64,000 bases of DNA from Promethearchaeota archaeon (GCA_019058445.1 JAHPZA010000009.1:518310-582309), one strand, 5' to 3'; numbered from the stretch's first letter, positions 1 to 41,869 are shown. A program made the numbers and translations. Notes: a model not told the origin generated them from the sequence alone.

Positions 1-411
1 CTTATGTTCTATTAGCTTTTCTTTAGAAGCTGTGATATCCTTTAAATCAGTAATTTGAATTTGGGAAATCATTACTGATTTAATTTTTTCTGCATGGAAT
101 CCACCATGTTTTCTTGCAAACTTTGCCGCATTGGATGCAGCCGCAACAACTGAGGGTTCCTCTATGACCATAGGAATTAAGTAATCTTTATTATTAATTT
201 TAAAATTACATGCTATACCTAGAGGTAATTGATAACTTCCTATAACATTCTCAATTAATGTATCCAGTTGAGAAGGTTTGAAATAACCAAAATTTTGCAA
301 TAGGGCAAGATCTTCTTCACTTAAATCAACGGCCCCAGCAACAACTTTTAGACGTTCTTCTATAGGAAGCTTATAAAAGCCAGATATGGCTGAATTGATT
401 TCTTTTTTCAT
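1..411 (-). CDS. hmgA: Hydroxymethylglutaryl-CoA reductase (class II-like), N-terminal part; runs off the window edge
   Basis: Manual translation from ATG at 411: MKKEINSAISGFYKLPIEERL...IENVIG...LPLGIA.NF.IN.KDY.IPMVIEEPSVVAAASNAAK. ENVIG and EEPSVVAA are HMGR signatures. Adjacent to HMG-CoA synthase. Confidence 0.93.
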   Translation of the reverse strand, partial: MKKEINSAISGFYKLPIEERLKVVAGAVDLSEEDLALLQNFGYFKPSQLDTLIENVIGSYQLPLGIACNFKINNKDYLIPMVIEEPSVVAAASNAAKFARKHGGFHAEKIKSVMISQIQITDLKDITASKEKLIEHK

Positions 412-546
412 AATATTTCATTTAAATTAGTATCTTAATTAAATTGAATAATAAATCTATTGGAAATCTTTTAAAATGATGAATAAACCATTGAAACTTT
501 TAAAAAAAAGGATTTGATCCAAACACATTCCTCGTATAAGTGAAAT

Positions 547-2175
547 CTAATATATATTTTGAATAGGGATATAGATTGGAACCCAATTTAACAATCCCAT
601 TGCATTGAAATCTTTTTCTTCCTTATTCTCAACTCTTCTTACTTCATATTCCAGGGAATTTCCCTTTCTTACGTTCCAGGCAACTCTTACTAAGCCTTTA
701 TTTAGATAGCTCAAATCATTTGTATTAGGATATACAATTGGGTTTGATTCAAGAGTTGCAAAAAGAGGAAAAAACCTCTCATGAAAGCCAGAATGTCCTT
801 TAGGACAATAGTTTAATCCTTTTTTATTTGGGATAATACATCCTTCATCACAAAAATGGAGTGTAAAACCTCGCTCTTCATTTAATTTATGTTCGCTAAT
901 ACGCCCTAATAAGGATCTCATTTCCACAGTTCCGCTTTTTATTTGTTCATATTCTTGAACGCTTTTCCTTTCTTTAAATTTGATGTAATCATTGATCTTG
1001 GGCCCATATCTTAGAACACTTTTGAATTGAGGTCTCACTTTTAATAGTCCAGAAATACATGTCGCACCAGAGCCATAAGAACCAAAATAAATCGTATCAT
1101 GAGGATTAGCATGGTTTTCGAGAATGAATTGGATTTGAGACCATACAGCAGCATTATACATGTTTCCAAAATGCATTGGAACTCTCAACTGGGGCAAAAC
1201 TCGTTCTTTTACATTTGTGTTTATCCAGTGTGCCCAGTTTTCTAATCTATCAGAAGAAAATCCTTTTTCTTTTAATTTTAAATAAATAAATTCTGGTAGG
1301 AGGGTTACATCATGAAGAAAGTAGTCTATTTTTTTTAATAAAGACGATTTCAAATCGTTTCTATTGATTTTAGGCAGATCATTTATGTTTTTTATCCAGC
1401 GTTTTTGGATTATGTATTGCATGGCTTTAAGTGGAAGTTTTGAAAAAGGGGCATGAAATGTGTAATAGTCAGCATAAAAATCTCCAATATGTCTAATTAA
1501 ATCGTCATATGCTCCCAATTGAAAGTTGATGTATGCATCAACCGAATAATGTCCAAAAACCTTCGCATTTTTTTCATTTGCAGGTCGATAAAAGTCATTA
1601 ATATCTCCTGAAATCATCCCAAACTTTTTACTAAAGGTCGCAATGCGTGGATTCTTAGAAATAATAAAAGCTATCGCCCCAGAACCCTGTGTAGGCTCAG
1701 AAGGAGTTCCCAAATGATAGGAAGATATGTCTGCACTTATTACGAGCGCCTTATTTATGATATCTCTCTCAATTAAACCAATTGCATTAAGTATTGCTAA
1801 AGTTCCTCCGGCACATGCATTATAAATATCTTGAGTTAAGATATTTTTTTGCAATCCTAACATTTCGGCAAAAATATTAGACACCGATTTAACGGCATAA
1901 GTGATCGTTTCTGTACCTACAAAAACAGCGTCAATTTCTTTGGGATTAATGTGTCCTCTATTCAGAGCATTATACGCCGCTTTTAATCCAATCGAGATGA
2001 TATCTTCATCGACTTCAGGTAATCTCATTTCTTTTAATAGTAAGCCTTTCCTATACTTGTTTGGATCAACATCTCTTTCTTTGGCAAGTTCTGTAATATC
2101 GACGAAATGTCTGGGCGCATGAAAACTTATTGAGTCAATTCCAATGTTTGTGAAAAGATAATCGTCAGAAATCAT
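547..2175 (-). CDS. mvaS: Hydroxymethylglutaryl-CoA synthase with C-terminal Zn-ribbon/OB-fold (DUF35-like) extension
   Basis: Thiolase-fold HMGS motifs: GTE, YNACAGGT (catalytic Cys), EPTQGSGA, FHAPFSK, GNMYNA, SYGSG. About 130 extra C-terminal residues contain FCDEGC...CPKGH. Confidence 0.9.
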   Translation of the reverse strand: MISDDYLFTNIGIDSISFHAPRHFVDITELAKERDVDPNKYRKGLLLKEMRLPEVDEDIISIGLKAAYNALNRGHINPKEIDAVFVGTETITYAVKSVSNIFAEMLGLQKNILTQDIYNACAGGTLAILNAIGLIERDIINKALVISADISSYHLGTPSEPTQGSGAIAFIISKNPRIATFSKKFGMISGDINDFYRPANEKNAKVFGHYSVDAYINFQLGAYDDLIRHIGDFYADYYTFHAPFSKLPLKAMQYIIQKRWIKNINDLPKINRNDLKSSLLKKIDYFLHDVTLLPEFIYLKLKEKGFSSDRLENWAHWINTNVKERVLPQLRVPMHFGNMYNAAVWSQIQFILENHANPHDTIYFGSYGSGATCISGLLKVRPQFKSVLRYGPKINDYIKFKERKSVQEYEQIKSGTVEMRSLLGRISEHKLNEERGFTLHFCDEGCIIPNKKGLNYCPKGHSGFHERFFPLFATLESNPIVYPNTNDLSYLNKGLVRVAWNVRKGNSLEYEVRRVENKEEKDFNAMGLLNWVPIYIPIQNIY

Positions 2176-26030: not shown

Positions 26031-26654
26031 TTATTTAGAAATATCTGGAAATACCTTTAATTTAGTATAAATATTATTTATACGAAGGGCTAATTCATCA
26101 AGCAGTATATCTTTTTCTTCCTGTTCATTTTGGCTGGACTTATACATACTTGCTAACTTCTTGGATTCTTGGGCAATTAAAAAAGAAATAAACTTATCAA
26201 TATCTTCAAAAATCCGAATATAAGAGGTCAGCACTGTTTTTTTTAACTGTTTTGAAGTGATATTCCCAAGAGTAAATTTATTAATTTCAGTTTTCAGGAT
26301 TTTTAGCTCGTGCTCATTAAAGATAATACGCTCCAGAACATCGTGAATAACAACTTCACGAGCTCTCACTTCTGATGCTTCCAAGGAGTTTTTTTGTGGT
26401 GGATTCTCAATGATTGTCTCCGGAGTAGACTGCTCCTCACGCACCTCATTTTTTGCGCCATAAGGCTTTGAAACATACTTTTTTTCTTCTAAAGCTTGAA
26501 TCGCATCATATTGTTCAAAATCTCCTTTATCAAATCCTAGCACCTCTTCAAGATCATCATCTTGAGATTCAATGACTTTCAATCGTTTATCAGTGTTAGA
26601 ACAAGGGCTCACCCAATCAGTAAGATCTTTTTTATTCGACATATAAATGCTCAA
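26031..26654 (-). CDS. Hypothetical protein (acidic N-terminus, helical C-terminus)
   Basis: 207-aa ORF preceded by the island promoter motif. Confidence 0.55.
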   Translation of the reverse strand: MSIYMSNKKDLTDWVSPCSNTDKRLKVIESQDDDLEEVLGFDKGDFEQYDAIQALEEKKYVSKPYGAKNEVREEQSTPETIIENPPQKNSLEASEVRAREVVIHDVLERIIFNEHELKILKTEINKFTLGNITSKQLKKTVLTSYIRIFEDIDKFISFLIAQESKKLASMYKSSQNEQEEKDILLDELALRINNIYTKLKVFPDISK

Positions 26655-26698: not shown

Positions 26699-26714
26699 TA
26701 TATAAAGAAAAAAA
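26699..26714 (-). promoter_or_regulatory. T-rich element plus TATA (island motif) TTTTTTTCTTTATATA
   Basis: 45 nt upstream of the 26654 start, in a divergent intergenic region. Confidence 0.65.
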
Positions 26715-30846: not shown

Positions 30847-32178
30847 TTAAGGCTCATTGATATGAGGTGGTCCTTTACCCATTTTAAATTTTAGTAGTTC
30901 TAACTCAAACATCAAATCTCCCTTGTGGAATTTGATTCTCCGAGCAAAGTCCCATTTGGAAAGCTCATTATTAATGATAGAAGGCTTTAAAGATATCAAG
31001 ACCGCTCCTCGATTCCCTTGACAAATGGCATATAAAAAACATTGAGAATCATTTATATTACATCGTATATTTGCTCCCCCTTTAAGCTTTACATCTATAA
31101 TTTCGGGGGGAAGGCCATCTTCTGAAGATTTAGATGTACTGTATCGTAACAATCCCATTTTGTCTATAACCTTTTTTAATAAATCGGTAGAATTAATAAG
31201 GGTCGTAAATCCAGGGATCTTAAACTGTTCAAATATTCTTTTTTTCACTTGTGATTGAATGGTACTCATTTTAATTCCTAGTCTGGTACATATTGAATTC
31301 ACGGTTACCTTTGAAGAATTAAAGGCGCATAATAATGAAATTGAACAGACTAATCCAGCGATTACGTCATCTTTTGTATTTTTAATAGCGTCCCATAATT
31401 TATAAAGAATAAATTTTGAATGGTAATAAAAATCCATTCCTAAGTTAAAGTGCTCTGAAATTTCTAAGATTTTTTGTACAATATATTGCTTTCTATTCCT
31501 TTCCTTATATTGAGGGATATAATTTTGAAATTGCAGCTTAAACCAATTAAATTCTTTTTTAGTAATCTTAGATACTTCCAATAGCTCAGCCTCATGAATA
31601 GAAATATTCTCAAATTTACATACAAAATAAATGGTTATCGGGATTAATTTATCAGGAGCTCGGTACTTAGTTCCTGGATGGAGACATGCGCGTAATTTTC
31701 TAAATTTATTTAGTACAATATACTTGAGAGAGCTGGGAAGATTTAGCATTTCGAAAATTCTTGTTACTTCGAGTTTGGCATTTAATAACACAGTGTCTTC
31801 GTTATCTCTCATAGTATGAAGTTTATTTAGCTTATCTAACTGCTTCGAATTGCTATTTCGAAATCTCTCGTACGCACTCCCGATTTGGGTAGTTCCAAGT
31901 GTGGCATGTTGCACCACATCGCTATTATAAGGTCTATGATATTCTAGCTTTTGGATCTCTAAGACCACGCCGCACGAACGACATACATAGCCTTCTGTGG
32001 TTTCTTTAATATCAACACTATTACAAATATCACACTTTAAACCCTCATAGGGTGCACTAACTTTTTTTAACATATTTTTAGATGCCTCTCTTTGAAAAGT
32101 CCTGTGGCTCATATCCGATAATTCTTTTTTTGCAGCCATTTTCTTATCACTTTTTAAGTCTTTTTTTTTAATAATCAT
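30847..32178 (-). CDS. tfb: Divergent transcription initiation factor IIB (TFB) paralog with C-terminal extension
   Basis: Zn ribbon CDIC-x14-CRSCGVVLE, shortened B-reader, linker 'L.KL..', two cyclin repeats (ITIYFVCK; VIAGLVC), terminal HTH 'VTVNSICTRLGIKMSTIQSQVK'. Confidence 0.8.
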   Translation of the reverse strand: MIIKKKDLKSDKKMAAKKELSDMSHRTFQREASKNMLKKVSAPYEGLKCDICNSVDIKETTEGYVCRSCGVVLEIQKLEYHRPYNSDVVQHATLGTTQIGSAYERFRNSNSKQLDKLNKLHTMRDNEDTVLLNAKLEVTRIFEMLNLPSSLKYIVLNKFRKLRACLHPGTKYRAPDKLIPITIYFVCKFENISIHEAELLEVSKITKKEFNWFKLQFQNYIPQYKERNRKQYIVQKILEISEHFNLGMDFYYHSKFILYKLWDAIKNTKDDVIAGLVCSISLLCAFNSSKVTVNSICTRLGIKMSTIQSQVKKRIFEQFKIPGFTTLINSTDLLKKVIDKMGLLRYSTSKSSEDGLPPEIIDVKLKGGANIRCNINDSQCFLYAICQGNRGAVLISLKPSIINNELSKWDFARRIKFHKGDLMFELELLKFKMGKGPPHINEP

Positions 32179-34430: not shown

Positions 34431-37400
34431 TTACTCCAGTGTTAGAGAGGATTTAATTTTTACACCACACCCCGGACAATATAAGGAGTCCGATTCAATC
34501 TTAACCCCGCAATATTCACATGTTTTTGTAGCATTAATTTCTAAGTGTTTTTTTAGTTTATGATAAAAGTCAGAGTATAGTTCATACGCACTAACTACTT
34601 TTGCTTCTAGATCTAAATCGTGTTCTTGAACATTATCACAATAATTTAGGTAATAATACAGTTGCTTTTGAGAAAAGGGAAGTTTCTGATATGAAATAAG
34701 TAGATTATAAAATAAATTAAAATCATTTTGAGTAATTCCTTTTTTTGGACCAGAGTTTATCTGATGATAAACTCTCATAAAAAGTGATTTAATGCAGACT
34801 TTTTCAATTTTGAGTGCAGCCCGTAAATCTTTTTCGGTGATATGTTTGTAAATTTGAAATATCTCATAATAAAAAGTCTTTAGTTCTTTGACTAATATTT
34901 TATGAACAAGATCATTTTCAAAAATGCGAATAGATGTAATATCCTTAGTTCGGTTCTTATTTTGGAAGGGTTGTTCAGAATTTTGCTCAATAACTTCCAC
35001 TGAGATGTCAGTTGTCTGTTCCTTTTTTGTTTGGAAATAATCATCAAGCGCAATTTCATAATGTTCTCCTACTTGATAAGAAGTTCGCATGGTTTCTTGC
35101 CCCGATGCACTTTTAGGATGGGCCTCTACTAAATATCTTTGTGTAATGAGGATATTATAGAGTTCTTGTTTCAACTTTTTCAATTCTCGTCTATCATCAG
35201 TAGTCATTTTTGCCTTTTCATGAATCACTTTTTTTAGGGCATCCTTGATCTTTCTCTCAGAAATGGGAAGTTTATGCACAACTTTTAATCCATCTAAAAA
35301 AGTAATGATCTCAGGGATAAATTGCGAAAATTTTCCGAAATCTTTTTCGAATATAGTCTTCCTGGTGCGTTCTATAATGCGCCTTTCAGTCAATTGGAGA
35401 TCATATCCTTGTTCTCTCATGAACGCTGCAATCTCGTCCATAGACAATGGTAGCACTCTTAATATATCAGCTACTTCAAATTTTACTGGAAATGTTTGAT
35501 TTACATCATCCCTCTTTACTAAAATTTCAGTTGATTTCATATTCTTAAGGTATTCTACTTGATAGGTATCCTTGCGAGATTTACTATAATACCCGGTTCC
35601 ATGCAGTTCTTGAAGACCCATGATGTTTTTTAACACATTAATATCACGATAATCAGTGGCTCGAAACGTCATGATGTTTTTAAATAGTTTTAAGAAATGA
35701 GGATGCATATAATGCATTTGATTAGCCATTATCACCGTTCCAAATCCCTCACGTCGTAGCGGTTCGAAAAATTTATCGATGCTCCCTAAATCTAGATATT
35801 TATCTAATGACCTTTCATCAAACACCAAATCAAGGTGCGGCAAAAACAGCACTTTTTCGCAAAATTCATCATATTTGGAGATATAATGGATGATTTTGGA
35901 TACAATGACTAAGGTTAAGAAATTCTTTTTTTTCAAGTCGTTTGAATTAGACAAGTCAATAATGACAGTTTTGTTATCTGAGATAAAAGATTTAAAGGTG
36001 ATCGTTTGCTTTTCTCCCTCTAGGTTACTATGAAAAAAGATTACTTCATCTTCTGTGAAATCCTCGAACATAGAGATGAGCTCCTCGACATGAGGATATT
36101 TCTTCCATGACACTTGATTCTTGAGCTCTAAAGCTAATGAAGCCAAAGTTAAATCACTATGTTCTTGGATAAATTTCTTCAGCCTGTCAACGGAAGATCT
36201 ATCTTTTTTAAAAGTGAGCCTATATGCGTCATATATATACTCTAAATAATCGGTATTGTTCTTTCCATATAATAAATCTGAGCTTAAGGGATCTATACTA
36301 AAAGCATTACCCATTTTAAAATGAACAATATCAAATTTGTAATTAGCATCTTTAAAAAAGGGAATTAACCTGGACCATTGCCCGCTATAATCAAATATAA
36401 GAGAAGGAACTCCTTGCTTGATTAACTGAATTACTATTTTCATAGCCAATAAATCCCTTTCCTGAGCAGTGCCATTGACAAGCAATACATTATCTATTTG
36501 ATCTCTGGTAAGTCCCGCAGGAATCTCTTTCTGCCAGAACTCGGTATTAATAGTGTGACCAAATGCTATAAAATTTTCAAGGTTTAACGGTGTATTAAAT
36601 TCGGCGGCTAGTTTAGTTATGATTCCTTTTTTAAACTCATCTTCAATCCCGGTAAGCCGCATTAACACCTTACCTTGAAGTAAGAGATATTGCAAATAAG
36701 TGCCTGAAAGGTTGTACAATTTATTCTTTAAAATTTCGCAGAGACATCCTGAAATAAGTTTCTGTGAGCTCAGAGGAGTAGTGTAAAACTCATCCAGCCG
36801 GGCGGTAAGCCTATCTTCTAAAAATGTGATATTTTTCTGAGCAATACTTGCCAAGCTAATATAATCATGTTCTGTAATAAAATCTATTTCTTCAAATGAT
36901 TTGTAGGCATATGTGGAAGCAGTTAAGATTACTTGCCACACCCCCGAACGAATTTTAAGCCAACGTTCCCCTTCTTCATTACTGGTAAGATAAAATTTAA
37001 GCATGTCTTGTGTATGGGTGTTTAATTTATGATATGCGATTTTATCAAAGCGATAAAAACTAAGGGGGCTGGCCATTGCAGTGTAGACAAAAGGAATTTT
37101 TCTCTCAATTAATTCTAAATAAAATTTATTGGGGTAAAAATCGACAATCCTAACCATATCTTCATTATATCGAAATCTTACTGCTGCATGATGAATATTA
37201 ACCATTTTTTCGCATACCAGCAACTTATTATGGATGAGAAAAAAGAGCGCATCTAAGATTCCCTTATGTTGAAATACTTGTATACCTTGAAAGGGATTAA
37301 GGATAGAGACACCTTCTCTTTTTAATAGATGATATGCTGATAAATAATAAAGCGGCTCTCTCCACCACACCCAAAAGATAAGAAATAACAAGCACAAGTC

Positions 37401-38375
37401 TAGTAGCGCAATAATCCAAAAGGTAATGTTTAATAACCATAAGAATGTTGAGATTGTGATAAGTACAAAAATGCAAAAAGCCACTTTCATAATATAGGAA
37501 CTTATACTAATGCTTGGTTTTAAGACTTCCATCTGTTTTGGAACGGAATAGGGAATGTCGCGTATAACAAATGACCTGAGCGCATGAATTAATTGATTTC
37601 TAGATAATAATTGCATGTGATAATGATGAAAGTCACCTACAAAATCAGCGCGCATTGAATCAAGAAACCGCTCAAATAATTCTTGGAGGATTGTAAATTT
37701 TCGAGAGGTAAGTATTCCCGAGATATCATAATAGGTTGCAAAATAAATGGCCGTTTGAAAAGATTTCATTGTTCCATTATGCTCTTGAGACAAATATTCT
37801 TTAAAATTTCCAGAGGAATTACTTGAAATAAGAGGCTGTTGATGGATCTGAAATGTATAGGGCATAGCATGTTTATTGAGCACTTTTATGTATTGATTTA
37901 AAGTAGCTTTTGTTGTTTCAGGGAGAGCACCAACTTTAAAAATGCTGAGAGCCACTGTCTTTAACTGCTCTTTATTAGTAATATATAGCACATTAGCAGC
38001 AGCATCTGCAAAAAAAAAAGTAAAATCCGTAAACAAATTCACTTTTCGATTTTTATTAAACAGTGAAGAAACTCCCATTCTCAAGCCGAATATGGTGTCT
38101 GAAAAAACAATCACAAATAAAATTACGGTAATAATTCCCACTAACAGCCCTATTAAAAGATGAGAGCCAGTAAGATATAAAGCGACAATAAAAAATACAG
38201 CAATGATGATAACTGAAAGTCCTTTTATGCTCGCATAGATTGTATTTATATCTGTAAATGATGGATTACTGTCCCATATATCTAAATAATTGCGTTTACG
38301 AGGCTGTTGTTCAGCCGTCCCTTGTGGCTTGTTGGCAAGAAAATGATCCGAATTGAGGGATTTACTTTTACTCAC
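34431..38375 (-). CDS. Membrane-anchored HerA/VirB4/FtsK-superfamily protein with degenerate Walker A/B and C-terminal Zn ribbon
   Basis: Two N-terminal modules, each with 2 TM plus an alpha/beta domain. HerA-like core 'NVLLVNGTAQERDLL...GVPSLIFDYSGQW', 'TVIIDLS', 'LRREGFGTVIMANQ'. C-terminal CEYC..CPGC. Confidence 0.7.
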   Translation of the reverse strand: MSKSKSLNSDHFLANKPQGTAEQQPRKRNYLDIWDSNPSFTDINTIYASIKGLSVIIIAVFFIVALYLTGSHLLIGLLVGIITVILFVIVFSDTIFGLRMGVSSLFNKNRKVNLFTDFTFFFADAAANVLYITNKEQLKTVALSIFKVGALPETTKATLNQYIKVLNKHAMPYTFQIHQQPLISSNSSGNFKEYLSQEHNGTMKSFQTAIYFATYYDISGILTSRKFTILQELFERFLDSMRADFVGDFHHYHMQLLSRNQLIHALRSFVIRDIPYSVPKQMEVLKPSISISSYIMKVAFCIFVLITISTFLWLLNITFWIIALLDLCLLFLIFWVWWREPLYYLSAYHLLKREGVSILNPFQGIQVFQHKGILDALFFLIHNKLLVCEKMVNIHHAAVRFRYNEDMVRIVDFYPNKFYLELIERKIPFVYTAMASPLSFYRFDKIAYHKLNTHTQDMLKFYLTSNEEGERWLKIRSGVWQVILTASTYAYKSFEEIDFITEHDYISLASIAQKNITFLEDRLTARLDEFYTTPLSSQKLISGCLCEILKNKLYNLSGTYLQYLLLQGKVLMRLTGIEDEFKKGIITKLAAEFNTPLNLENFIAFGHTINTEFWQKEIPAGLTRDQIDNVLLVNGTAQERDLLAMKIVIQLIKQGVPSLIFDYSGQWSRLIPFFKDANYKFDIVHFKMGNAFSIDPLSSDLLYGKNNTDYLEYIYDAYRLTFKKDRSSVDRLKKFIQEHSDLTLASLALELKNQVSWKKYPHVEELISMFEDFTEDEVIFFHSNLEGEKQTITFKSFISDNKTVIIDLSNSNDLKKKNFLTLVIVSKIIHYISKYDEFCEKVLFLPHLDLVFDERSLDKYLDLGSIDKFFEPLRREGFGTVIMANQMHYMHPHFLKLFKNIMTFRATDYRDINVLKNIMGLQELHGTGYYSKSRKDTYQVEYLKNMKSTEILVKRDDVNQTFPVKFEVADILRVLPLSMDEIAAFMREQGYDLQLTERRIIERTRKTIFEKDFGKFSQFIPEIITFLDGLKVVHKLPISERKIKDALKKVIHEKAKMTTDDRRELKKLKQELYNILITQRYLVEAHPKSASGQETMRTSYQVGEHYEIALDDYFQTKKEQTTDISVEVIEQNSEQPFQNKNRTKDITSIRIFENDLVHKILVKELKTFYYEIFQIYKHITEKDLRAALKIEKVCIKSLFMRVYHQINSGPKKGITQNDFNLFYNLLISYQKLPFSQKQLYYYLNYCDNVQEHDLDLEAKVVSAYELYSDFYHKLKKHLEINATKTCEYCGVKIESDSLYCPGCGVKIKSSLTLE

Positions 38376-39247
38376 TGAGACACCACTACCGCTTTTTTCG
38401 AGTATTGTCTATAGAGCAGAAAAAAGAAAGATCCTGTTCCAAAAAATAATAAAGTAAAGAGGCTCATTTGTGCGGTGAGTTGGGGATGATAGATAGTTTG
38501 AATTGCCACTATAACTCCAAGCATTAAAAACAGTAGAAGTAGTCCAAAAATTAAATATCCAAAAATATTGGGTATGGAACACTGATATATAAGATTATCT
38601 TTAAGCTTTCCTCGAAGCATAATTTTTCCGCCATCATACTGCTGCATGGCATGCTTCGCATTTTTAAATGCAATCATTTTTTCGAACTTCTCTCTGTCGT
38701 ACTCCTCATTAAGCTCTTTTTGCAGCTGCCCTTCTTGCTCTTGAAATCCATGCATTATTACCTCTTTTAATTTCTGATGGTTAAGTTTTCTTTTAGAGTG
38801 AACAGTATTCCCCGAAAAAAATGAAAATGCTCTCATTTCGCTATTTTGAGCAATCACTTCCAGATCTAACTTTTCAAATAAATTTGGAATTTCTAATGTT
38901 CTAAATTCATAAAAAAACTCATATATTTGAGAAATTAATTCTAAAGGAATATTTCCTCTGTTTTTACTAAATAAAAGTTCAGTTGTTTTAATTGATTGAA
39001 TGGCATCTTCTTGAAATAAATAGATTTTAAAATTATGATGTAAAATCGAATTGACTAAATGCATATACTGAAAAATCGTCTCGTTTCCTTCTTTATTTCT
39101 TGGACGAATCCCTAATTTCACTCCAATTTCATCTAATACATTTCCAACCAAAAGCAACCCAACAGTTGCTAATTTTCGGTAGTTATGTGTCTGCTTGCAC
39201 ACTCTAATAAGGCTTTTTAATTTGATATCAATCAGTTCATAGTTCAT
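38372..39247 (-). CDS. Soluble helical domain plus two C-terminal TM helices
   Basis: 291 aa; 4-nt overlaps with both neighbours (translational coupling). Confidence 0.65.
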   Translation of the reverse strand: MNYELIDIKLKSLIRVCKQTHNYRKLATVGLLLVGNVLDEIGVKLGIRPRNKEGNETIFQYMHLVNSILHHNFKIYLFQEDAIQSIKTTELLFSKNRGNIPLELISQIYEFFYEFRTLEIPNLFEKLDLEVIAQNSEMRAFSFFSGNTVHSKRKLNHQKLKEVIMHGFQEQEGQLQKELNEEYDREKFEKMIAFKNAKHAMQQYDGGKIMLRGKLKDNLIYQCSIPNIFGYLIFGLLLLFLMLGVIVAIQTIYHPQLTAQMSLFTLLFFGTGSFFFLLYRQYSKKAVVVSQ

Positions 39248-39990
39248 ATTCTTTGCCTCCTTTTTGTTAATTGTTGAGGATATTCCTCCAGCTCTTCAAG
39301 GTAATCCAAAGACTCATCATTAAATTTCAATTTTAATTGCTCTCTGGCAATTAATGTATCCATATCAATTGGTTCTTGGACATCGTTAATATATTGCGAA
39401 ACCTTCTTTTTAGCGGAATATTCTTGAGAACGGAATCCTGTGACAGTATAATAATAAAATATCGCGTAAGGAAATACGAAAATAAAGCTTAATAATTGAG
39501 CGAAATATCCAGGACCTATTGAATAGTGATATATCAGTTCTGTATCTTTATCTTTCACAAGTAAAAAAGGGAAATAGAGATCATTAGGAAGTAAATAGAA
39601 GACGGGAAATGCGAAAATATAAAACAGCATAAGTATAAGCAGAAACATATTTGCATACGCATGGAATGTTAATTTTTCAAGCGGATCGTATTGTTCCACA
39701 TCTCGAAAGATGACGGTATAAGCTGATACAACCAGTATTATAATATATAGTATTGTTAATGCGATAGGAATCTGAAATGTTTTCGGTTTAAGAGTATAAT
39801 TGAACGTTGAATTCTCAGAAAATAATGTCGTCCATCCTGTAACAGGATTATAGCTCCAATACGATTTTAAGCTGTTGTGAGAGTCATATACTTGATATAT
39901 ATACCACTCTAAAAAAAATGACACAAATGCAAAAAGTAGCCCCAATACATACATTATCCGAAAATACTGACGAGTTTTAGCTGTTATCAT
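39244..39990 (-). CDS. Four-TM membrane protein
   Basis: TM1 'LGLLFAFVSFFLEWY', beta-rich loops, 'SIGPGYF' before TM4 (claudin-like topology). In an operon with the ATPase-like gene. Confidence 0.65.
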   Translation of the reverse strand: MITAKTRQYFRIMYVLGLLFAFVSFFLEWYIYQVYDSHNSLKSYWSYNPVTGWTTLFSENSTFNYTLKPKTFQIPIALTILYIIILVVSAYTVIFRDVEQYDPLEKLTFHAYANMFLLILMLFYIFAFPVFYLLPNDLYFPFLLVKDKDTELIYHYSIGPGYFAQLLSFIFVFPYAIFYYYTVTGFRSQEYSAKKKVSQYINDVQEPIDMDTLIAREQLKLKFNDESLDYLEELEEYPQQLTKRRQRI

Positions 39991-39997
39991 TTCCCAA

Positions 39998-41815
39998 TCA
40001 ATCCTCCAAAAAAGTACTATATTTTGAAATCATTTGACCTCTCACTGAATTTTCTTTTAGTCCACTAGAAGTATTATTCTCTCTAATGCTAATCTTTTCT
40101 TCATTTTGGTATGAGACAGAGCTAATATTTTCATTTTGTAATGGAAAATCATACCCCTCAATATCCTTTTGAGTTTCAAGGGCTTTAATGCTTTCGATTT
40201 CCTTAATAAAAGAGAATTCACAAGATTTCCCGAACCATTCATACAAGATTTGGTCAAGTTCATGGGAACTCATGGTATCTTGGATACTCAATAAGTCAGT
40301 CTCATCCAATTCAACGGGTTTAAGGAAGTAAGGTGTTTTATAATCATTTTTGAGATTTTTTCGTGTTTTTGCAAACGTTCTATAAACAAATCCCATAATA
40401 ATCCCATAAATAATGAGAGCAGCGACACCTAAATTGGTAAAGGTAGCTAAAATGTAAAAATTTTGCAAGAACATTATTCCTAAAAAAATAACGCCAAACA
40501 TTAAAACGGGTATCGAGTATTTTTGAAGATTGTTCTTTAAGTTGATAAGCGATTGATTATATTTTACTAGAGCATTCTCTAGTAAAAATGATTCTCTAAT
40601 TGAGATTTTTTTTTCTAAAAATTGCACCAATGATATTATTTCTCTACTCTCTACAACGTGTATATTGAACTTGCGCTGGTATGGAAACAGAGCAGTTTTT
40701 TCTAAAAACGCAGGTTCACTTATACTCACTAATATTGGATGGATAACTGGTTTATATTCTTTCGAATGAGTACTAATAAATAAAGGAGTTCCGTTTTTTG
40801 TTTTTCTTATCACTAAACTCCGTTTTGCTAATTTTTTGCGAATTAATTGAAATAAAGACCCTTCATTGGTAATATTTTCAAATACCTCTTTTTGAGCAGA
40901 TACCAAGCACTTTTGAGATATTTCAACTTTCGCATGGGTAGGTTTATAAGTAATATGATTCTCAGAAACCAATAGATTACCTCGCAATTGGCTTATCTTC
41001 ACTGGAAAAACTACCAAGGTTCCTATAGACTTATTTACTTCCAATATTTTATAAGCTAGTATATCAATATCTTTTAAGATATTCCTAAGCAAATTCGATT
41101 GTTTGTCAAGAATGGCATAACCTAAATGCTTAAATCTATTTACAACTGTTTTTTTCACTTGCATAAGATCTTTTTTACTCACTATTTCCTCATGAACTTT
41201 TTCAGAACCCTTTACTTCATTTGGTTTAAGGGCTTCTGAAGCCAGTTCCTCGTTCTGTTTTTGAAGCAGTAGCTCATTTTCAATAAAAGCCTCCAATTCC
41301 TCTACAGCACGATCTGATTTAGGAATAAATGCAGAGTTATATGTATTTTCTTTAGCACTTGAACTTCCAAAAATAGGGTAATCATCATTTTCAACAGGCA
41401 AGAATTTCTCATCTTTAAAATCCTGAACTTGAGACTCAACTAACTCTTGAAAGGATCCTTCCAAAGGTTCTTCTTCTCTTAAGAATGATAGATGGTCAGA
41501 GGTGACTTGTTCACCTTTAATTTCTGATATATTCTCAAGAATGGGCGTGCCTTGAGATTTATCAGGGTTCTCCTCTAAAATCGCTTCATTAATACTAACA
41601 TCATTATGTTTACTAAACTCTTGTGCATTTTCAATAATTTTTTTTGAGGTTGCGAGCCCGAATCCATTAACTTTCGATAATTGTTCAGGAGTAAGGGCTA
41701 CCAATTGTTTAATACTAGTAATTCCAGCACTCACTAATTTATCTTTGATATACTCTCCAATACCTTGAATATTTGTAAAATCATATTCTATTTCCATTTT
41801 TTCCACCAAGTCCAA
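39998..41815 (-). CDS. Membrane-anchored protein with N-terminal tandem HhH DNA-binding domain and degenerate PD-(D/E)xK-like domain
   Basis: 'IQGIGEYIKDKLVSAGI...LSKVNGFGLATSKKII' (RadA-N/HhH), acidic linker, 'FKHLGY...DIDILAYK...FPVK', two TM near residues 435-480. Confidence 0.65.
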   Translation of the reverse strand: MDLVEKMEIEYDFTNIQGIGEYIKDKLVSAGITSIKQLVALTPEQLSKVNGFGLATSKKIIENAQEFSKHNDVSINEAILEENPDKSQGTPILENISEIKGEQVTSDHLSFLREEEPLEGSFQELVESQVQDFKDEKFLPVENDDYPIFGSSSAKENTYNSAFIPKSDRAVEELEAFIENELLLQKQNEELASEALKPNEVKGSEKVHEEIVSKKDLMQVKKTVVNRFKHLGYAILDKQSNLLRNILKDIDILAYKILEVNKSIGTLVVFPVKISQLRGNLLVSENHITYKPTHAKVEISQKCLVSAQKEVFENITNEGSLFQLIRKKLAKRSLVIRKTKNGTPLFISTHSKEYKPVIHPILVSISEPAFLEKTALFPYQRKFNIHVVESREIISLVQFLEKKISIRESFLLENALVKYNQSLINLKNNLQKYSIPVLMFGVIFLGIMFLQNFYILATFTNLGVAALIIYGIIMGFVYRTFAKTRKNLKNDYKTPYFLKPVELDETDLLSIQDTMSSHELDQILYEWFGKSCEFSFIKEIESIKALETQKDIEGYDFPLQNENISSVSYQNEEKISIRENNTSSGLKENSVRGQMISKYSTFLED

Positions 41816-41854: not shown

Positions 41855-41869
41855 TATATAAAGAAAAAA
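41855..41869 (-). promoter_or_regulatory. Island promoter motif TTTTTTCTTTATATA
   Basis: 40 nt upstream of the four-gene membrane operon, in a divergent intergenic region. Confidence 0.65.

What the first reader, a model, noticed from the sequence alone, without database searches (positions are those of the whole stretch)
34431..38375. 1314-aa membrane-tethered HerA/VirB4-like pseudo-ATPase that keeps its arginine finger
The Walker A position reads NGTAQERD (no GKS/T) and Walker B reads LFLPHLD (no DE). The 'IFDYSGQW' strand and the 'LRREG.G.....NQ' arginine-finger/sensor motif of HerA/FtsK ATPases remain. It has a duplicated 2TM plus alpha/beta N-terminal module and a C-terminal Zn ribbon. 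Inference: a catalytically dead subunit that acts as a scaffold or channel, or activates an active partner in trans within a hetero-hexameric DNA translocase.
Basis: partly seen in the sequence, partly recalled or inferred. Interest (0 to 1): 0.75.

Follow-up and report, generated by a model that had tools for sequence, protein, structure and literature searches.

The report
Dead VirB4-like motor, Asgard archaeon
This 1314-residue membrane protein of a Loki-type Asgard archaeon is a full-length relative of VirB4, the motor of DNA-transfer (type IV secretion) machines, but its ATP site has been rebuilt so that it almost certainly cannot burn ATP; it is conserved in a four-gene membrane operon and probably serves as a scaffold.

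Summary
The fold is not just "HerA/VirB4-like". Residues 113-580 match the whole N-terminal domain of TrwK/VirB4 (Z 27.3). Residues 589-979 match the VirB4, DndH and HerA ATPase domains (Z about 24).

The Walker motifs are lost in all 98 full-length orthologues, so this is not local decay. They are replaced by other conserved residues: Walker Lys-Ser/Thr becomes Arg-Glu/Asp, and Walker B Glu-Glu becomes Pro-His/Asn.

- The "arginine finger" (R874/R875) sits at the right position but occurs only in this protein's closest relatives (8 of 97 orthologues).
- The Zn ribbon is unique to this protein.

The duplicated "2TM + alpha/beta" module is real. It corresponds to the two halves of the VirB4 N-domain, as in crenarchaeal CedB/CedD.

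The gene ends a four-gene operon conserved in 9 of 11 loci from other genomes. The operon is driven by the T-run-C-TATA promoter of an accessory recombination-gene island.

I found no active partner in the operon or the island. The scaffold role in a Ced-like DNA-transfer complex is inferred. An earlier agent of this scan reached the same reading on another genome (e1-3941994).

The parts
34431..38375 (-). Whole ORF, 1314 aa (P0001): VirB4-like pseudo-ATPase
   Evidence: Over 150 Asgard homologues of about 1270 aa, none with a Pfam domain on the homologous region.
38091..38243 (-). TM hairpin 1 (residues ~45-95)
   Evidence: Hydropathy scan. AF2 helices 45-69 and 73-90.
37551..38078 (-). First alpha/beta module (residues ~100-275), the first half of the VirB4 N-domain
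   Evidence: VIA alignment of model 113..580 to TrwK 15..400, Z 27.3. Duplicate of the second module.
37356..37514 (-). TM hairpin 2 (residues ~288-340), inserted between the two N-domain halves
   Evidence: Hydropathy scan. AF2 helices 291-314 and 319-337.
36651..37343 (-). Second alpha/beta module (residues ~345-575), the second half of the VirB4 N-domain
   Evidence: hhalign duplication, E 3e-17.
35439..36611 (-). HerA/VirB4-fold (RecA-like) domain, residues 589-979
   Evidence: VIA: Z 24.5 to DndH-C (7es4), 24.4 to VirB4 CTD (4ag6), 23.9 to HerA (4d2i). The family profile hits HerA chains in the PDB, E 5.8e-5.
36453..36476 (-). Rebuilt Walker A (residues 634-641, NGTAQERD). R640 is at the Walker Lys position and D/E641 at the Ser/Thr position.
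   Evidence: Profile alignment to the canonical member P0262 (AGTGSGKTT). Family counts: N634 96/98, G635 96/98, R640 93/98, E/D641 90/98.
35829..35852 (-). Rebuilt Walker B (residues 842-849, VLFLPHLD). P846-H847 replace the acidic pair.
   Evidence: P846 97/98, D849 96/98, no acidic pair in any of 98 sequences.
35751..35756 (-). R874-R875 at the arginine-finger position; specific to this subclade
   Evidence: Aligns to R455/K456 of DUF4297-HerA and to the Arg of P0262. Arg in 9-10 of 98. Arg at 874 in 5/10 nearest and 3/87 other relatives.
35016..35363 (-). Probable winged-helix region (residues ~1005-1120)
   Evidence: hhalign to the C-terminus of the soluble ~530-aa relatives, probability 72.7, E 3.2e-5. 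That C-terminus hits Pfam HTH_24 at E 6e-7.
34455..34529 (-). C-terminal Zn ribbon (residues 1283-1307), a private addition of this protein
   Evidence: Weak Pfam hits. Gapped in 92-94 of 98 orthologues. Resembles a stretch on contig C6 of the same genome.
38372..39247 (-). Operon gene 3 (P0002, 291 aa): cytoplasmic helical part plus two C-terminal TM helices
   Evidence: No family hit above threshold. Syntenic in 8 of 11 loci.
39244..39990 (-). Operon gene 2 (P0003, 248 aa): polytopic membrane protein
   Evidence: Syntenic in 9 of 11 loci. Only unnamed Promethearchaeota clusters in the Atlas.
39998..41815 (-). Operon gene 1 (P0004, 605 aa): RadA-like N-terminal HhH domain, linker, two TM helices
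   Evidence: Pfam HHH_5, E 1.2e-9. NCBIfam RadA N-terminus, E 1.5e-7. Syntenic in 9 of 11 loci.
41855..41869 (-). Island-type promoter (T-run, C, TTTATATA), 40-55 nt upstream of the operon's first start codon
   Evidence: The 15-mer occurs 7 times in the 4.6-Mb genome, 5 of them between window positions 26.7 and 46.6 kb.
26031..26654 (-). P0285, homologue of the helical 'adaptor' gene that directly follows the VirB4-like gene in other genomes. Here it is displaced by 8 kb and has its own island promoter.
   Evidence: Exact promoter match at 26701-26712.

Best explanation
Shown by computation: P0001 is a full-length structural homologue of VirB4, the signature ATPase of type IV secretion and conjugation machines. 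Each half of the VirB4 N-domain is preceded by a two-helix membrane hairpin. The nucleotide site of the C-terminal RecA-like domain has been rebuilt, family-wide, into a form that lacks the P-loop glycines, the Walker Lys and Ser/Thr, and the Walker B acidic pair.

Inferred: the protein no longer hydrolyses ATP and probably no longer binds it. It keeps VirB4's other job, which is to form the cytoplasmic-face platform of an inner-membrane complex. Here that complex would be built with the three co-transcribed membrane proteins P0004 (HhH DNA binder), P0003 (polytopic) and P0002.

More speculative: the complex is a Ced/Ted-like, T4SS-derived DNA-transfer or DNA-docking device. It would be switched on together with the spare recombination genes of the accessory island by the island's own TFB. 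Energy would come from some other protein.
For: Fold:
- N-half model: pLDDT 87.2, pTM 0.87. Among the 14 matches at E <= 0.001, every one the capped list shows is a TrwK/VirB4 chain (E 5e-9 to 1e-7); the next listed hit is at E 0.12.
- VIA: Z 27.3, rmsd 3.8 over 324 residues, model 113-580 against TrwK 15-400.
- C-half model: pLDDT 83.8. Z 24.4 to VirB4 CTD, 24.5 to DndH-C, 23.9 to HerA.
- Sequence profile to HerA chains: E 5.8e-5.

Dead site:
- 0 of 98 orthologues have a P-loop or an acidic Walker B pair.
- R640 and D/E641 sit at the Lys and Ser/Thr positions; P846-H847 sit at the Glu-Glu positions.
- A HerA K154R mutant loses ATPase activity (PMC4351679).
- Only 1 of 106 cluster representatives of the wider family is canonical.

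Under selection: 40-55% identity over the ATPase-like region (residues 560-1000) across genera (24-41% over the N-terminal 580 residues), and the substituting residues are themselves conserved.

Operon: the order P0004-P0003-P0002-P0001 holds in 9 of 11 foreign loci (in one of the nine the P0002-like gene gave no tblastn hit). Start and stop codons overlap. A single island promoter lies upstream.

DNA link:
- HhH domain in P0004 and a winged-helix-like region in P0001.
- A NYN nuclease fused to or following the homologue in other genomes.
- Hef-like helicase and XPG/FEN genes in the same promoter-marked island.
- The island TFB lies 14-15 kb from the homologue in two other genera. It was not found in the two same-genus genomes that lack the family.

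Precedent: CedB and CedD are each 'TM + half a VirB4 N-domain + HerA-like ATPase' (PMC11868833). Ced/Ted are domesticated T4SS, and Ced is under TFB3 control (PMC9905601).
Against: - No biochemistry: loss of nucleotide binding is inferred from sequence and a predicted model.
- No VirB6-, VirB2- or VirB8-like fold was shown for any partner.
- Almost all of the four proteins' mass is predicted to be cytoplasmic, with no evident pilin or surface part. The small hydrophobic ORFs downstream are not conserved by tblastn.
- A translocon without a motor needs another energy source, and none is in the operon.
- Two of 11 loci carry the big gene without its partners.
- Conserved replacement residues at the old site could mean a new ligand-binding function rather than a purely structural role.
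Confidence: 0.6

Rival explanations
1. Membrane DNA-docking or repair platform, not a translocon. The ring-like dead VirB4, the HhH protein and the winged helix hold DNA ends or incoming DNA at the membrane for the island's recombination enzymes. Nothing is moved across the membrane.
For: All soluble domains are predicted to be cytoplasmic, with short outer loops. There is no motor and no recognisable pilin. The DNA-binding modules and recombination genes share the promoter class.
Against: Keeping the complete VirB4 N-domain plus a polytopic partner (P0003) is more than a tether needs. No precedent that I know of.
Confidence: 0.2
2. The old nucleotide pocket has been re-purposed. The protein is a sensor or switch that binds another ligand (a nucleotide-derived signal, a metal, DNA phosphate) through R640, E641, D662, D807, D849, Q886 and H891, and gates the complex.
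For: The replacement residues are as conserved as a working active site. R at the Walker Lys position holds in 79 of 106 representatives of the wider family. Many distant members keep an acidic Walker B while lacking the Lys.
Against: The loop has bulky or Pro residues at the glycine positions, and AF2 models it as an early helix start. No ligand is suggested by any tool.
Confidence: 0.12
3. One reading: a dead subunit that keeps its arginine finger to activate an active HerA/VirB4 paralogue within a hetero-hexameric translocase.
For: R874/R875 lie at the R-finger position in this protein. Crenarchaeal CedB and CedD are paralogues that work together (PMC11868833). An active membrane-tethered HerA/FtsK-like ATPase (P0284) exists in the genome.
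Against: The Arg pair is absent from about 90% of orthologues. P0284 is on another contig, lacks the island promoter, and is present in genomes without this family and missing from some that have it. No canonical member occurs among 98 orthologues. Pfam VirB4 models find nothing in the genome.
Confidence: 0.05
4. Conjugation or defence module of a mobile element.
For: Patchy distribution: 31 of 40 family genomes have it, it was not found in two same-genus genomes of 98-99% completeness, and some genomes carry 2-3 copies. HerA-type proteins are common in defence systems (PDB hits).
Against: No integrase, relaxase or phage hallmark in the flanks examined. No PADLOC or PHROG hit for the ATPase-like domain or for the partner genes, apart from weak short matches to the Zn-ribbon tail, the HhH domain, P0002 and the 121-aa ORF. 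GC content matches the surroundings. A dead motor fits active conjugation poorly.
Confidence: 0.06

Closest known systems
TrwK/VirB4 of plasmid R388 (PDB 7o42, 7o43, 8rtd) and VirB4 CTD of Thermoanaerobacter (4ag5/4ag6)
   Same: Both domains match. The N-domain gives Z 27.3 over TrwK 15-400 and the C-domain Z 24.4. Both are cytoplasmic, membrane-associated platforms.
   Different: No P-loop, no Walker B acids and no conserved R finger. Two TM hairpins are built into the chain. It has an extra winged-helix-like and helical C-terminal third. There is no hit to the Pfam VirB4 models. The host is an Asgard archaeon.
CedB / CedD (Sulfolobales) and TedB (Thermoproteales), the VirB4-like ATPases of archaeal DNA-import systems
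   Same: Same building block: 'TM + half of the VirB4 N-domain', followed by a HerA-clade ATPase domain (PMC11868833). Both are chromosomal and partnered with small and polytopic membrane proteins. Ced is induced with DNA-repair genes through a TFB paralogue (PMC9905601).
   Different: Here the two halves are fused in one chain ahead of a single, catalytically degenerate domain. The partners show no detectable similarity to CedA/CedA1. I made no direct sequence or structure comparison with CedB/CedD.
HerA (S. solfataricus 4d2i; Sir2-HerA 8j4u; DUF4297-HerA 8xau)
   Same: The only family reached at sequence-profile level (E 5.8e-5 to 8e-3). Shared motifs around the FD..G strand, the IIDLS strand, the Walker B strand and the sensor Gln.
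   Different: No HAS-barrel; the N-domain is VirB4-like. DUF87 does not hit. The catalytic residues are replaced.
DndH C-domain (7es4) of the DndFGH phosphorothioate-dependent restriction system
   Same: Top VIA score for the C-domain (Z 24.5, rmsd 3.9 over 326 residues).
   Different: Tied with VirB4 and HerA. No Dnd genes are nearby, and there is no PADLOC hit.
Poorly catalytic FtsK-like domains of the type VII secretion ATPase EccC (4nh0)
   Same: An FtsK/HerA-fold domain in a membrane secretion machine that acts mainly as a regulatory or structural unit. That statement is my recollection of the literature, not tested here. Z 13.4.
   Different: EccC domains still bind ATP and keep P-loops. 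The architecture and host differ.

Membership tests
VirB4 (T4SS/conjugation ATPase) | VirB4-specific N-terminal domain fold | tested here: met
   Z 27.3, rmsd 3.8 over 324 residues, against TrwK 15-400. The next hit that is not VirB4 has Z 13.
VirB4 (T4SS/conjugation ATPase) | RecA-like C-terminal domain of the HerA/FtsK superfamily | tested here: met
   Z 24.4 to 4ag6 and Foldseek E 2e-12 to 8rtd.
VirB4 (T4SS/conjugation ATPase) | Walker A GxxxxGK[ST] | tested here: not met
   NGTAQERD here. 0 of 98 orthologues have a P-loop. One has a chance 'GKS' without the upstream glycines.
VirB4 (T4SS/conjugation ATPase) | Walker B hhhhD/E-E | tested here: not met
   VLFLPHLD here. No acidic pair in any of 98 orthologues.
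VirB4 (T4SS/conjugation ATPase) | Match to curated sequence models (PF03135 CagE_TrbE_VirB, PF12846 AAA_10) | tested here: not met
   No Pfam hit at E <= 1. Neither family was found anywhere in the genome.
VirB4 (T4SS/conjugation ATPase) | Encoded with VirB6-, VirB3- and VirB2-like membrane partners | tested here: inconclusive
   Three conserved membrane partners exist, but no fold or family could be assigned to them.
VirB4 (T4SS/conjugation ATPase) | Hexameric (or hexamer-of-dimers) assembly | not testable with these tools
   Needs a purified complex or a full multimer model.
HerA (DUF87, PF01935) | Match to the DUF87 model | tested here: not met
   No hit for P0001. The genome scan with PF01935 finds three other genes, not this one.
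HerA (DUF87, PF01935) | N-terminal HAS-barrel | tested here: inconclusive
   The N-terminal 580 residues fold as TM hairpins plus two alpha/beta modules. These match only VirB4's N-domain. No barrel is seen in the model, but none was searched for on its own.
HerA (DUF87, PF01935) | Profile-level sequence similarity of the ATPase core | tested here: met
   Family profile against PDB HerA chains: E 5.8e-5, 4.8e-4, 8e-3.
CedB/CedD-type archaeal DNA-import ATPases | TM segment + half VirB4 N-domain + HerA-clade ATPase domain | tested here: inconclusive
   The architecture agrees with the published description (PMC11868833). Medium-length relatives (750-900 aa) have one hairpin plus one module. No CedB/CedD sequence or model was compared directly.
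CedB/CedD-type archaeal DNA-import ATPases | Needed for DNA import; induced by DNA damage | not testable with these tools
   Needs genetics or transcriptomics in a cultured relative.

The most novel reading that the evidence does not exclude
Lokiarchaeia carry a chromosomal, T4SS-derived DNA-exchange apparatus whose VirB4 has become a pure scaffold. It is co-regulated by a private TFB with a spare set of recombination enzymes. This would be an Asgard counterpart of the Sulfolobales Ups/Ced/TFB3 programme, meaning regulated DNA exchange plus recombination in the closest relatives of eukaryotes.
Probability: 0.3. Interest if true: 0.85.

Novelty: new variant of a known kind. Interest (0 to 1): 0.62.

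Why it matters
VirB4 is the one ATPase shared by all type IV secretion and conjugation systems, and it is regarded as their indispensable motor. A whole, well-conserved family in which VirB4's architecture is kept but its ATP site is rebuilt shows that the protein's platform role can be separated from its motor role.

It also gives the first sequence-level handle I could find on a T4SS/Ced-like machine in Asgard archaea. No paper on this appeared in five searches of the literature on this question. Because the operon sits in an island of recombination genes with its own transcription factor, it makes testable the question of whether Asgard archaea exchange DNA in a regulated way.

The wider family has about 1300 cluster representatives, in short, medium and long forms. 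It is unannotated in Pfam, NCBIfam, PADLOC and PHROGs.

Tried and rejected
- Complex prediction with two copies of the C-domain (alignment A2) gave 'no answer', score 0.00. It says nothing either way.
Synteny was done with the genome search and the fetch from genomes instead.
- Single-sequence phmmer against the PDB gave only noise. A full-length profile gave nothing. Only the domain profile reached HerA.
- Pfam, NCBIfam, PADLOC and PHROGs gave nothing for the ATPase-like or N-terminal domains of P0001; its only matches, a sub-cut-off Pfam Zn-ribbon hit and one PHROG of unknown function, fall on the Zn-ribbon tail.
- ESM Atlas for P0003 and P0002 gave only unnamed Promethearchaeota clusters, or nothing.
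- P0284 as the active partner: rejected. It has no island promoter and its distribution is independent.
- Mobile-element reading: no integrase or relaxase found in the ORFs scanned.
- The small hydrophobic ORFs at 33.2-34.3 kb as conserved pilin-like partners: no tblastn match in 11 syntenic loci, which is weak evidence for such short proteins.
- ARAGORN finds no tRNA in the window.
- Both structure-prediction jobs went on P0001, so the partners' folds remain untested.


Full report
**What is there.** The ORF 34431..38375 (-) is open for 1314 codons. It starts with a GTG that overlaps the stop of the upstream gene. Curated libraries see only a weak C-terminal Zn ribbon. A single-sequence search of the PDB finds nothing.

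**Relatives.** More than 150 homologues of about 1270 aa were found. All of them that carry a name come from Asgard MAGs (Prometh-, Hod-, Thor- and Odinarchaeota labels), apart from one partial protein deposited as '[bacterium]' (P0052). They are 40-55% identical over the ATPase-like region. Two of them carry a fused NYN domain (see Partners, below); otherwise none has a precomputed Pfam domain.
- In a sample of 201 genomes of the phylum, strong full-length matches are confined to the window's own GTDB family, in 31 of 40 genomes. Some genomes hold 2-3 copies.
- Two same-genus genomes of 98-99% completeness have no match to the protein or to the domain profile.

**Fold.** I folded two overlapping parts with a 73-sequence alignment.
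- Residues 345-1010 (pLDDT 83.8): Foldseek E 6e-14 to S. solfataricus HerA and 2e-12 to TrwK/VirB4. VIA gives Z 24.5 to DndH-C, 24.4 to VirB4 CTD, 23.9 to HerA and 21 to TrwB, over residues 589-979. The refutation test 'the fold is not RecA-like' therefore fails.
- Residues 1-580 (pLDDT 87.2, pTM 0.87): this was the informative result. The listed significant PDB matches are all TrwK/VirB4 chains (E 5e-9 to 1e-7); the next listed hit has E 0.12.
- VIA aligns residues 113-580 to TrwK 15-400, the whole VirB4 N-domain, with Z 27.3 and rmsd 3.8 Å over 324 residues. The next hit that is not VirB4 has Z 13.

So the protein is a full-length VirB4 homologue, not merely HerA-like.

**The duplication.** Residues 44-274 align to 290-552 with hhalign probability 98.9 and E 3e-17. 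The two '2TM + alpha/beta' units are the two halves of the VirB4 N-domain, each with its own membrane hairpin. This is the building block described for crenarchaeal CedB and CedD, whose N-domains superpose on different halves of VirB4's N-domain (PMC11868833).

**The ATP site.** I examined 98 full-length orthologues.
- None has a P-loop or an acidic Walker B pair. One has a chance 'GKS' without the upstream glycines.
- A domain profile (A2) reaches a canonical member (P0262: AGTGSGKTT, VVEEAH) at E 8e-23, and reaches HerA chains in the PDB at E 5.8e-5.
- Those alignments place R640 at the Walker lysine, D/E641 at the Ser/Thr, P846-H847 at the two Walker B acids, and Q886 at the sensor Gln.
- The replacements are conserved: N634 96/98, G635 96/98, R640 93/98, E/D641 90/98, P846 97/98, D849 96/98.
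- The glycine positions carry Ser, Pro, Gln or Tyr, and AF2 starts the helix three residues after the strand.
- HerA K154R alone abolishes ATPase activity (PMC4351679).

I conclude that this is a rebuilt, non-catalytic site kept under selection, not recent decay. This is inference from sequence and a model. Nucleotide binding was not measured.

**The 'arginine finger'.** R874/R875 align with R455/K456 of DUF4297-HerA, the trans-acting finger (PMC11291478), and with the Arg of P0262. But across the family position 874 is L33 I18 V15 R9, and position 875 is Q34 E26 K11 R10. Arg at 874 occurs in 5 of the 10 nearest relatives and in 3 of the other 87. It is a subclade trait, not a conserved functional residue of the family.

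**C-terminal third.**
- Residues ~1005-1120 align to the winged-helix C-terminus of the soluble relatives (hhalign E 3.2e-5; Pfam HTH_24 on P0126).
- The Zn ribbon is missing from 92-94 of 98 orthologues. It resembles a stretch elsewhere in this genome.

**Wider family.** The profile finds 1334 cluster representatives at E <= 1e-3. Three architectures occur:
- soluble, ~530 aa, with a winged helix;
- 750-900 aa, with one hairpin and one module;
- 1230-1410 aa, with two hairpins and two modules.

Of 106 representatives that cover both motifs, one is canonical and 79 have Arg at the Walker-Lys position. Many distant members keep an acidic Walker B. Named members are Prometh-, Sigyn- and Baldrarchaeota, plus one 'Bathyarchaeota' MAG.

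**Context.** The gene is the last of four co-directional genes with overlapping or abutting ends.
- P0004: RadA-like HhH domain, linker, two TM helices.
- P0003: polytopic membrane protein.
- P0002: helical part plus two TM helices.
- P0001.

The same order is found in 9 of 11 loci taken from other genomes; in one of these (L027) the P0002-like gene gave no tblastn hit. Two loci carry the big gene alone.

The only island-type promoter for the operon lies at 41855-41869. It is a T-run, then C, then TTTATATA.
- The 12-mer core occurs 18 times in the window against 6.1 expected, and 0 of 100 shuffles reach that count.
- The 15-mer occurs 7 times in 4.6 Mb, 5 of them between 26.7 and 46.6 kb of the window.

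The same promoter class precedes other genes here:
- an XPG/FEN-type nuclease and the Hef-like helicase's neighbours;
- a prenyltransferase-like gene;
- small membrane ORFs.

A divergent TFB also lies in the island, at 30847-32178. That TFB lies 14-15 kb from the VirB4-like gene in two other genera. It was not found in the two same-genus genomes that lack the family. This agrees with earlier notes of this scan on an accessory island with a private promoter and TFB. I re-tested only the promoter and the TFB linkage.

**Partners and energy.**
- In 7 of 11 loci the gene directly downstream encodes a helical 'adaptor'. In this window its homologue (P0285) sits 8 kb away with its own island promoter.
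- In one locus that adaptor carries a Zc3h12a-type NYN nuclease domain (E 2e-10). In P0050 the nuclease is fused to the VirB4-like protein itself (E 2e-15).
- No ATPase is encoded in the operon.
- The genome has three DUF87 genes. One is a standard HerA, one is a soluble 648-aa protein, and one is P0284.
- P0284 is a 788-aa protein with 3-4 N-terminal TM helices and intact Walker motifs. It has no island promoter. It is present in five or six of the seven P0001-negative genomes common to both samples and missing from three P0001-positive ones. It is not an obligate partner.

**Mechanism.**
- Shown by computation: VirB4 architecture, a rebuilt site, a conserved operon and a shared promoter.
- Inferred: no ATP turnover, and a platform role like that of VirB4 in the T4SS inner-membrane complex.
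- Speculative: a Ced/Ted-like DNA-transfer or DNA-docking machine run by the island's TFB. This would parallel TFB3 control of Ups/Ced in Sulfolobales (PMC9905601).

The main rivals are a non-translocating DNA tether and a re-purposed ligand pocket.

**Novelty.** I found no paper describing a VirB4-like protein or a T4SS/Ced-like system in Asgard archaea, or a VirB4 pseudo-ATPase. The held library is incomplete. An earlier agent of this scan described the same kind of protein in another Asgard genome (e1-3941994). My analysis reaches the same reading independently. It adds the residue-level mapping, the non-conservation of the R finger and the Zn ribbon, and the negative test of an active partner.

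Noticed in passing
L021:12065-12937 (+); P0050 residues 1325-1449: In other genomes the gene just after the VirB4-like gene encodes a helical adaptor plus a Zc3h12a-type NYN nuclease (Pfam E 2e-10). In P0050 and P0068 the nuclease is fused to the VirB4-like protein. This window's copy (P0285) has the adaptor only.
   Followed up: partly
G000:C6:1269812-1272175 (L032; protein P0284): A 788-aa protein with 3-4 N-terminal TM helices and intact Walker A/B (DUF87, FtsK and weak TrwB hits). It is an active membrane-tethered HerA/VirD4-like ATPase, found in 47 of 61 family genomes and distributed independently of the dead VirB4 family.
   Followed up: partly
L017:5507-7045, L018:4686-6287, L019:4892-6337 (proteins P0125-P0127): Soluble ~530-aa relatives in other Asgard families: the same degenerate Walker A (G-T/S-x-x-E-R), an acidic Walker B kept, and a C-terminal winged helix. 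Their neighbours differ (NifH-like, PLD-like nuclease, M28 peptidase). Their function is open.
   Followed up: partly
L010:3175-4452 / L024:10377-11654 (G171:C23) and other rows: Several homologues show one in-frame TAA or TGA inside the match, including inside the ATPase-like domain of the solitary copy in G171. These could be pseudogenes, assembly errors or something else.
   Followed up: no
G000:C1:197735-197749 and G000:C7:35143-35157: The only two exact copies of the 15-mer island promoter outside this window's island. I did not look at what they precede.
   Followed up: no
window 34455-34529 and G000:C6:650721-650813 (L002): The private Zn-ribbon tail of P0001 resembles (45% identity, E 6e-5) a stretch inside a 249-aa open frame elsewhere in the genome. 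This may be the source of the added tail.
   Followed up: no
P0001 residues 926-963 (window ~35487-35600): G928, Y930, R934, Q939, R955 and D957 are invariant in the 98 orthologues. R934 and R955 are invariant, and Q939 and D957 nearly so, in the 20-sequence domain alignment that includes the distant soluble family (G928 and Y930 are not kept there). The canonical member P0262 does not align there. This is a family signature of unknown role.
   Followed up: no
model m19ed1c3a97dc residues 49-567: The second-best structural match of the N-half is an ESX-3 (type VII secretion) membrane subunit, 6umm_A (Z 13.1, rmsd 7.2). It may only reflect the 'TM hairpin + alpha/beta domain' layout.
   Followed up: no
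window 41795-41815: The TTG start listed for P0004 is followed 6 codons later by an in-frame ATG (MEIEYDF...), which may be the real start.
   Followed up: no
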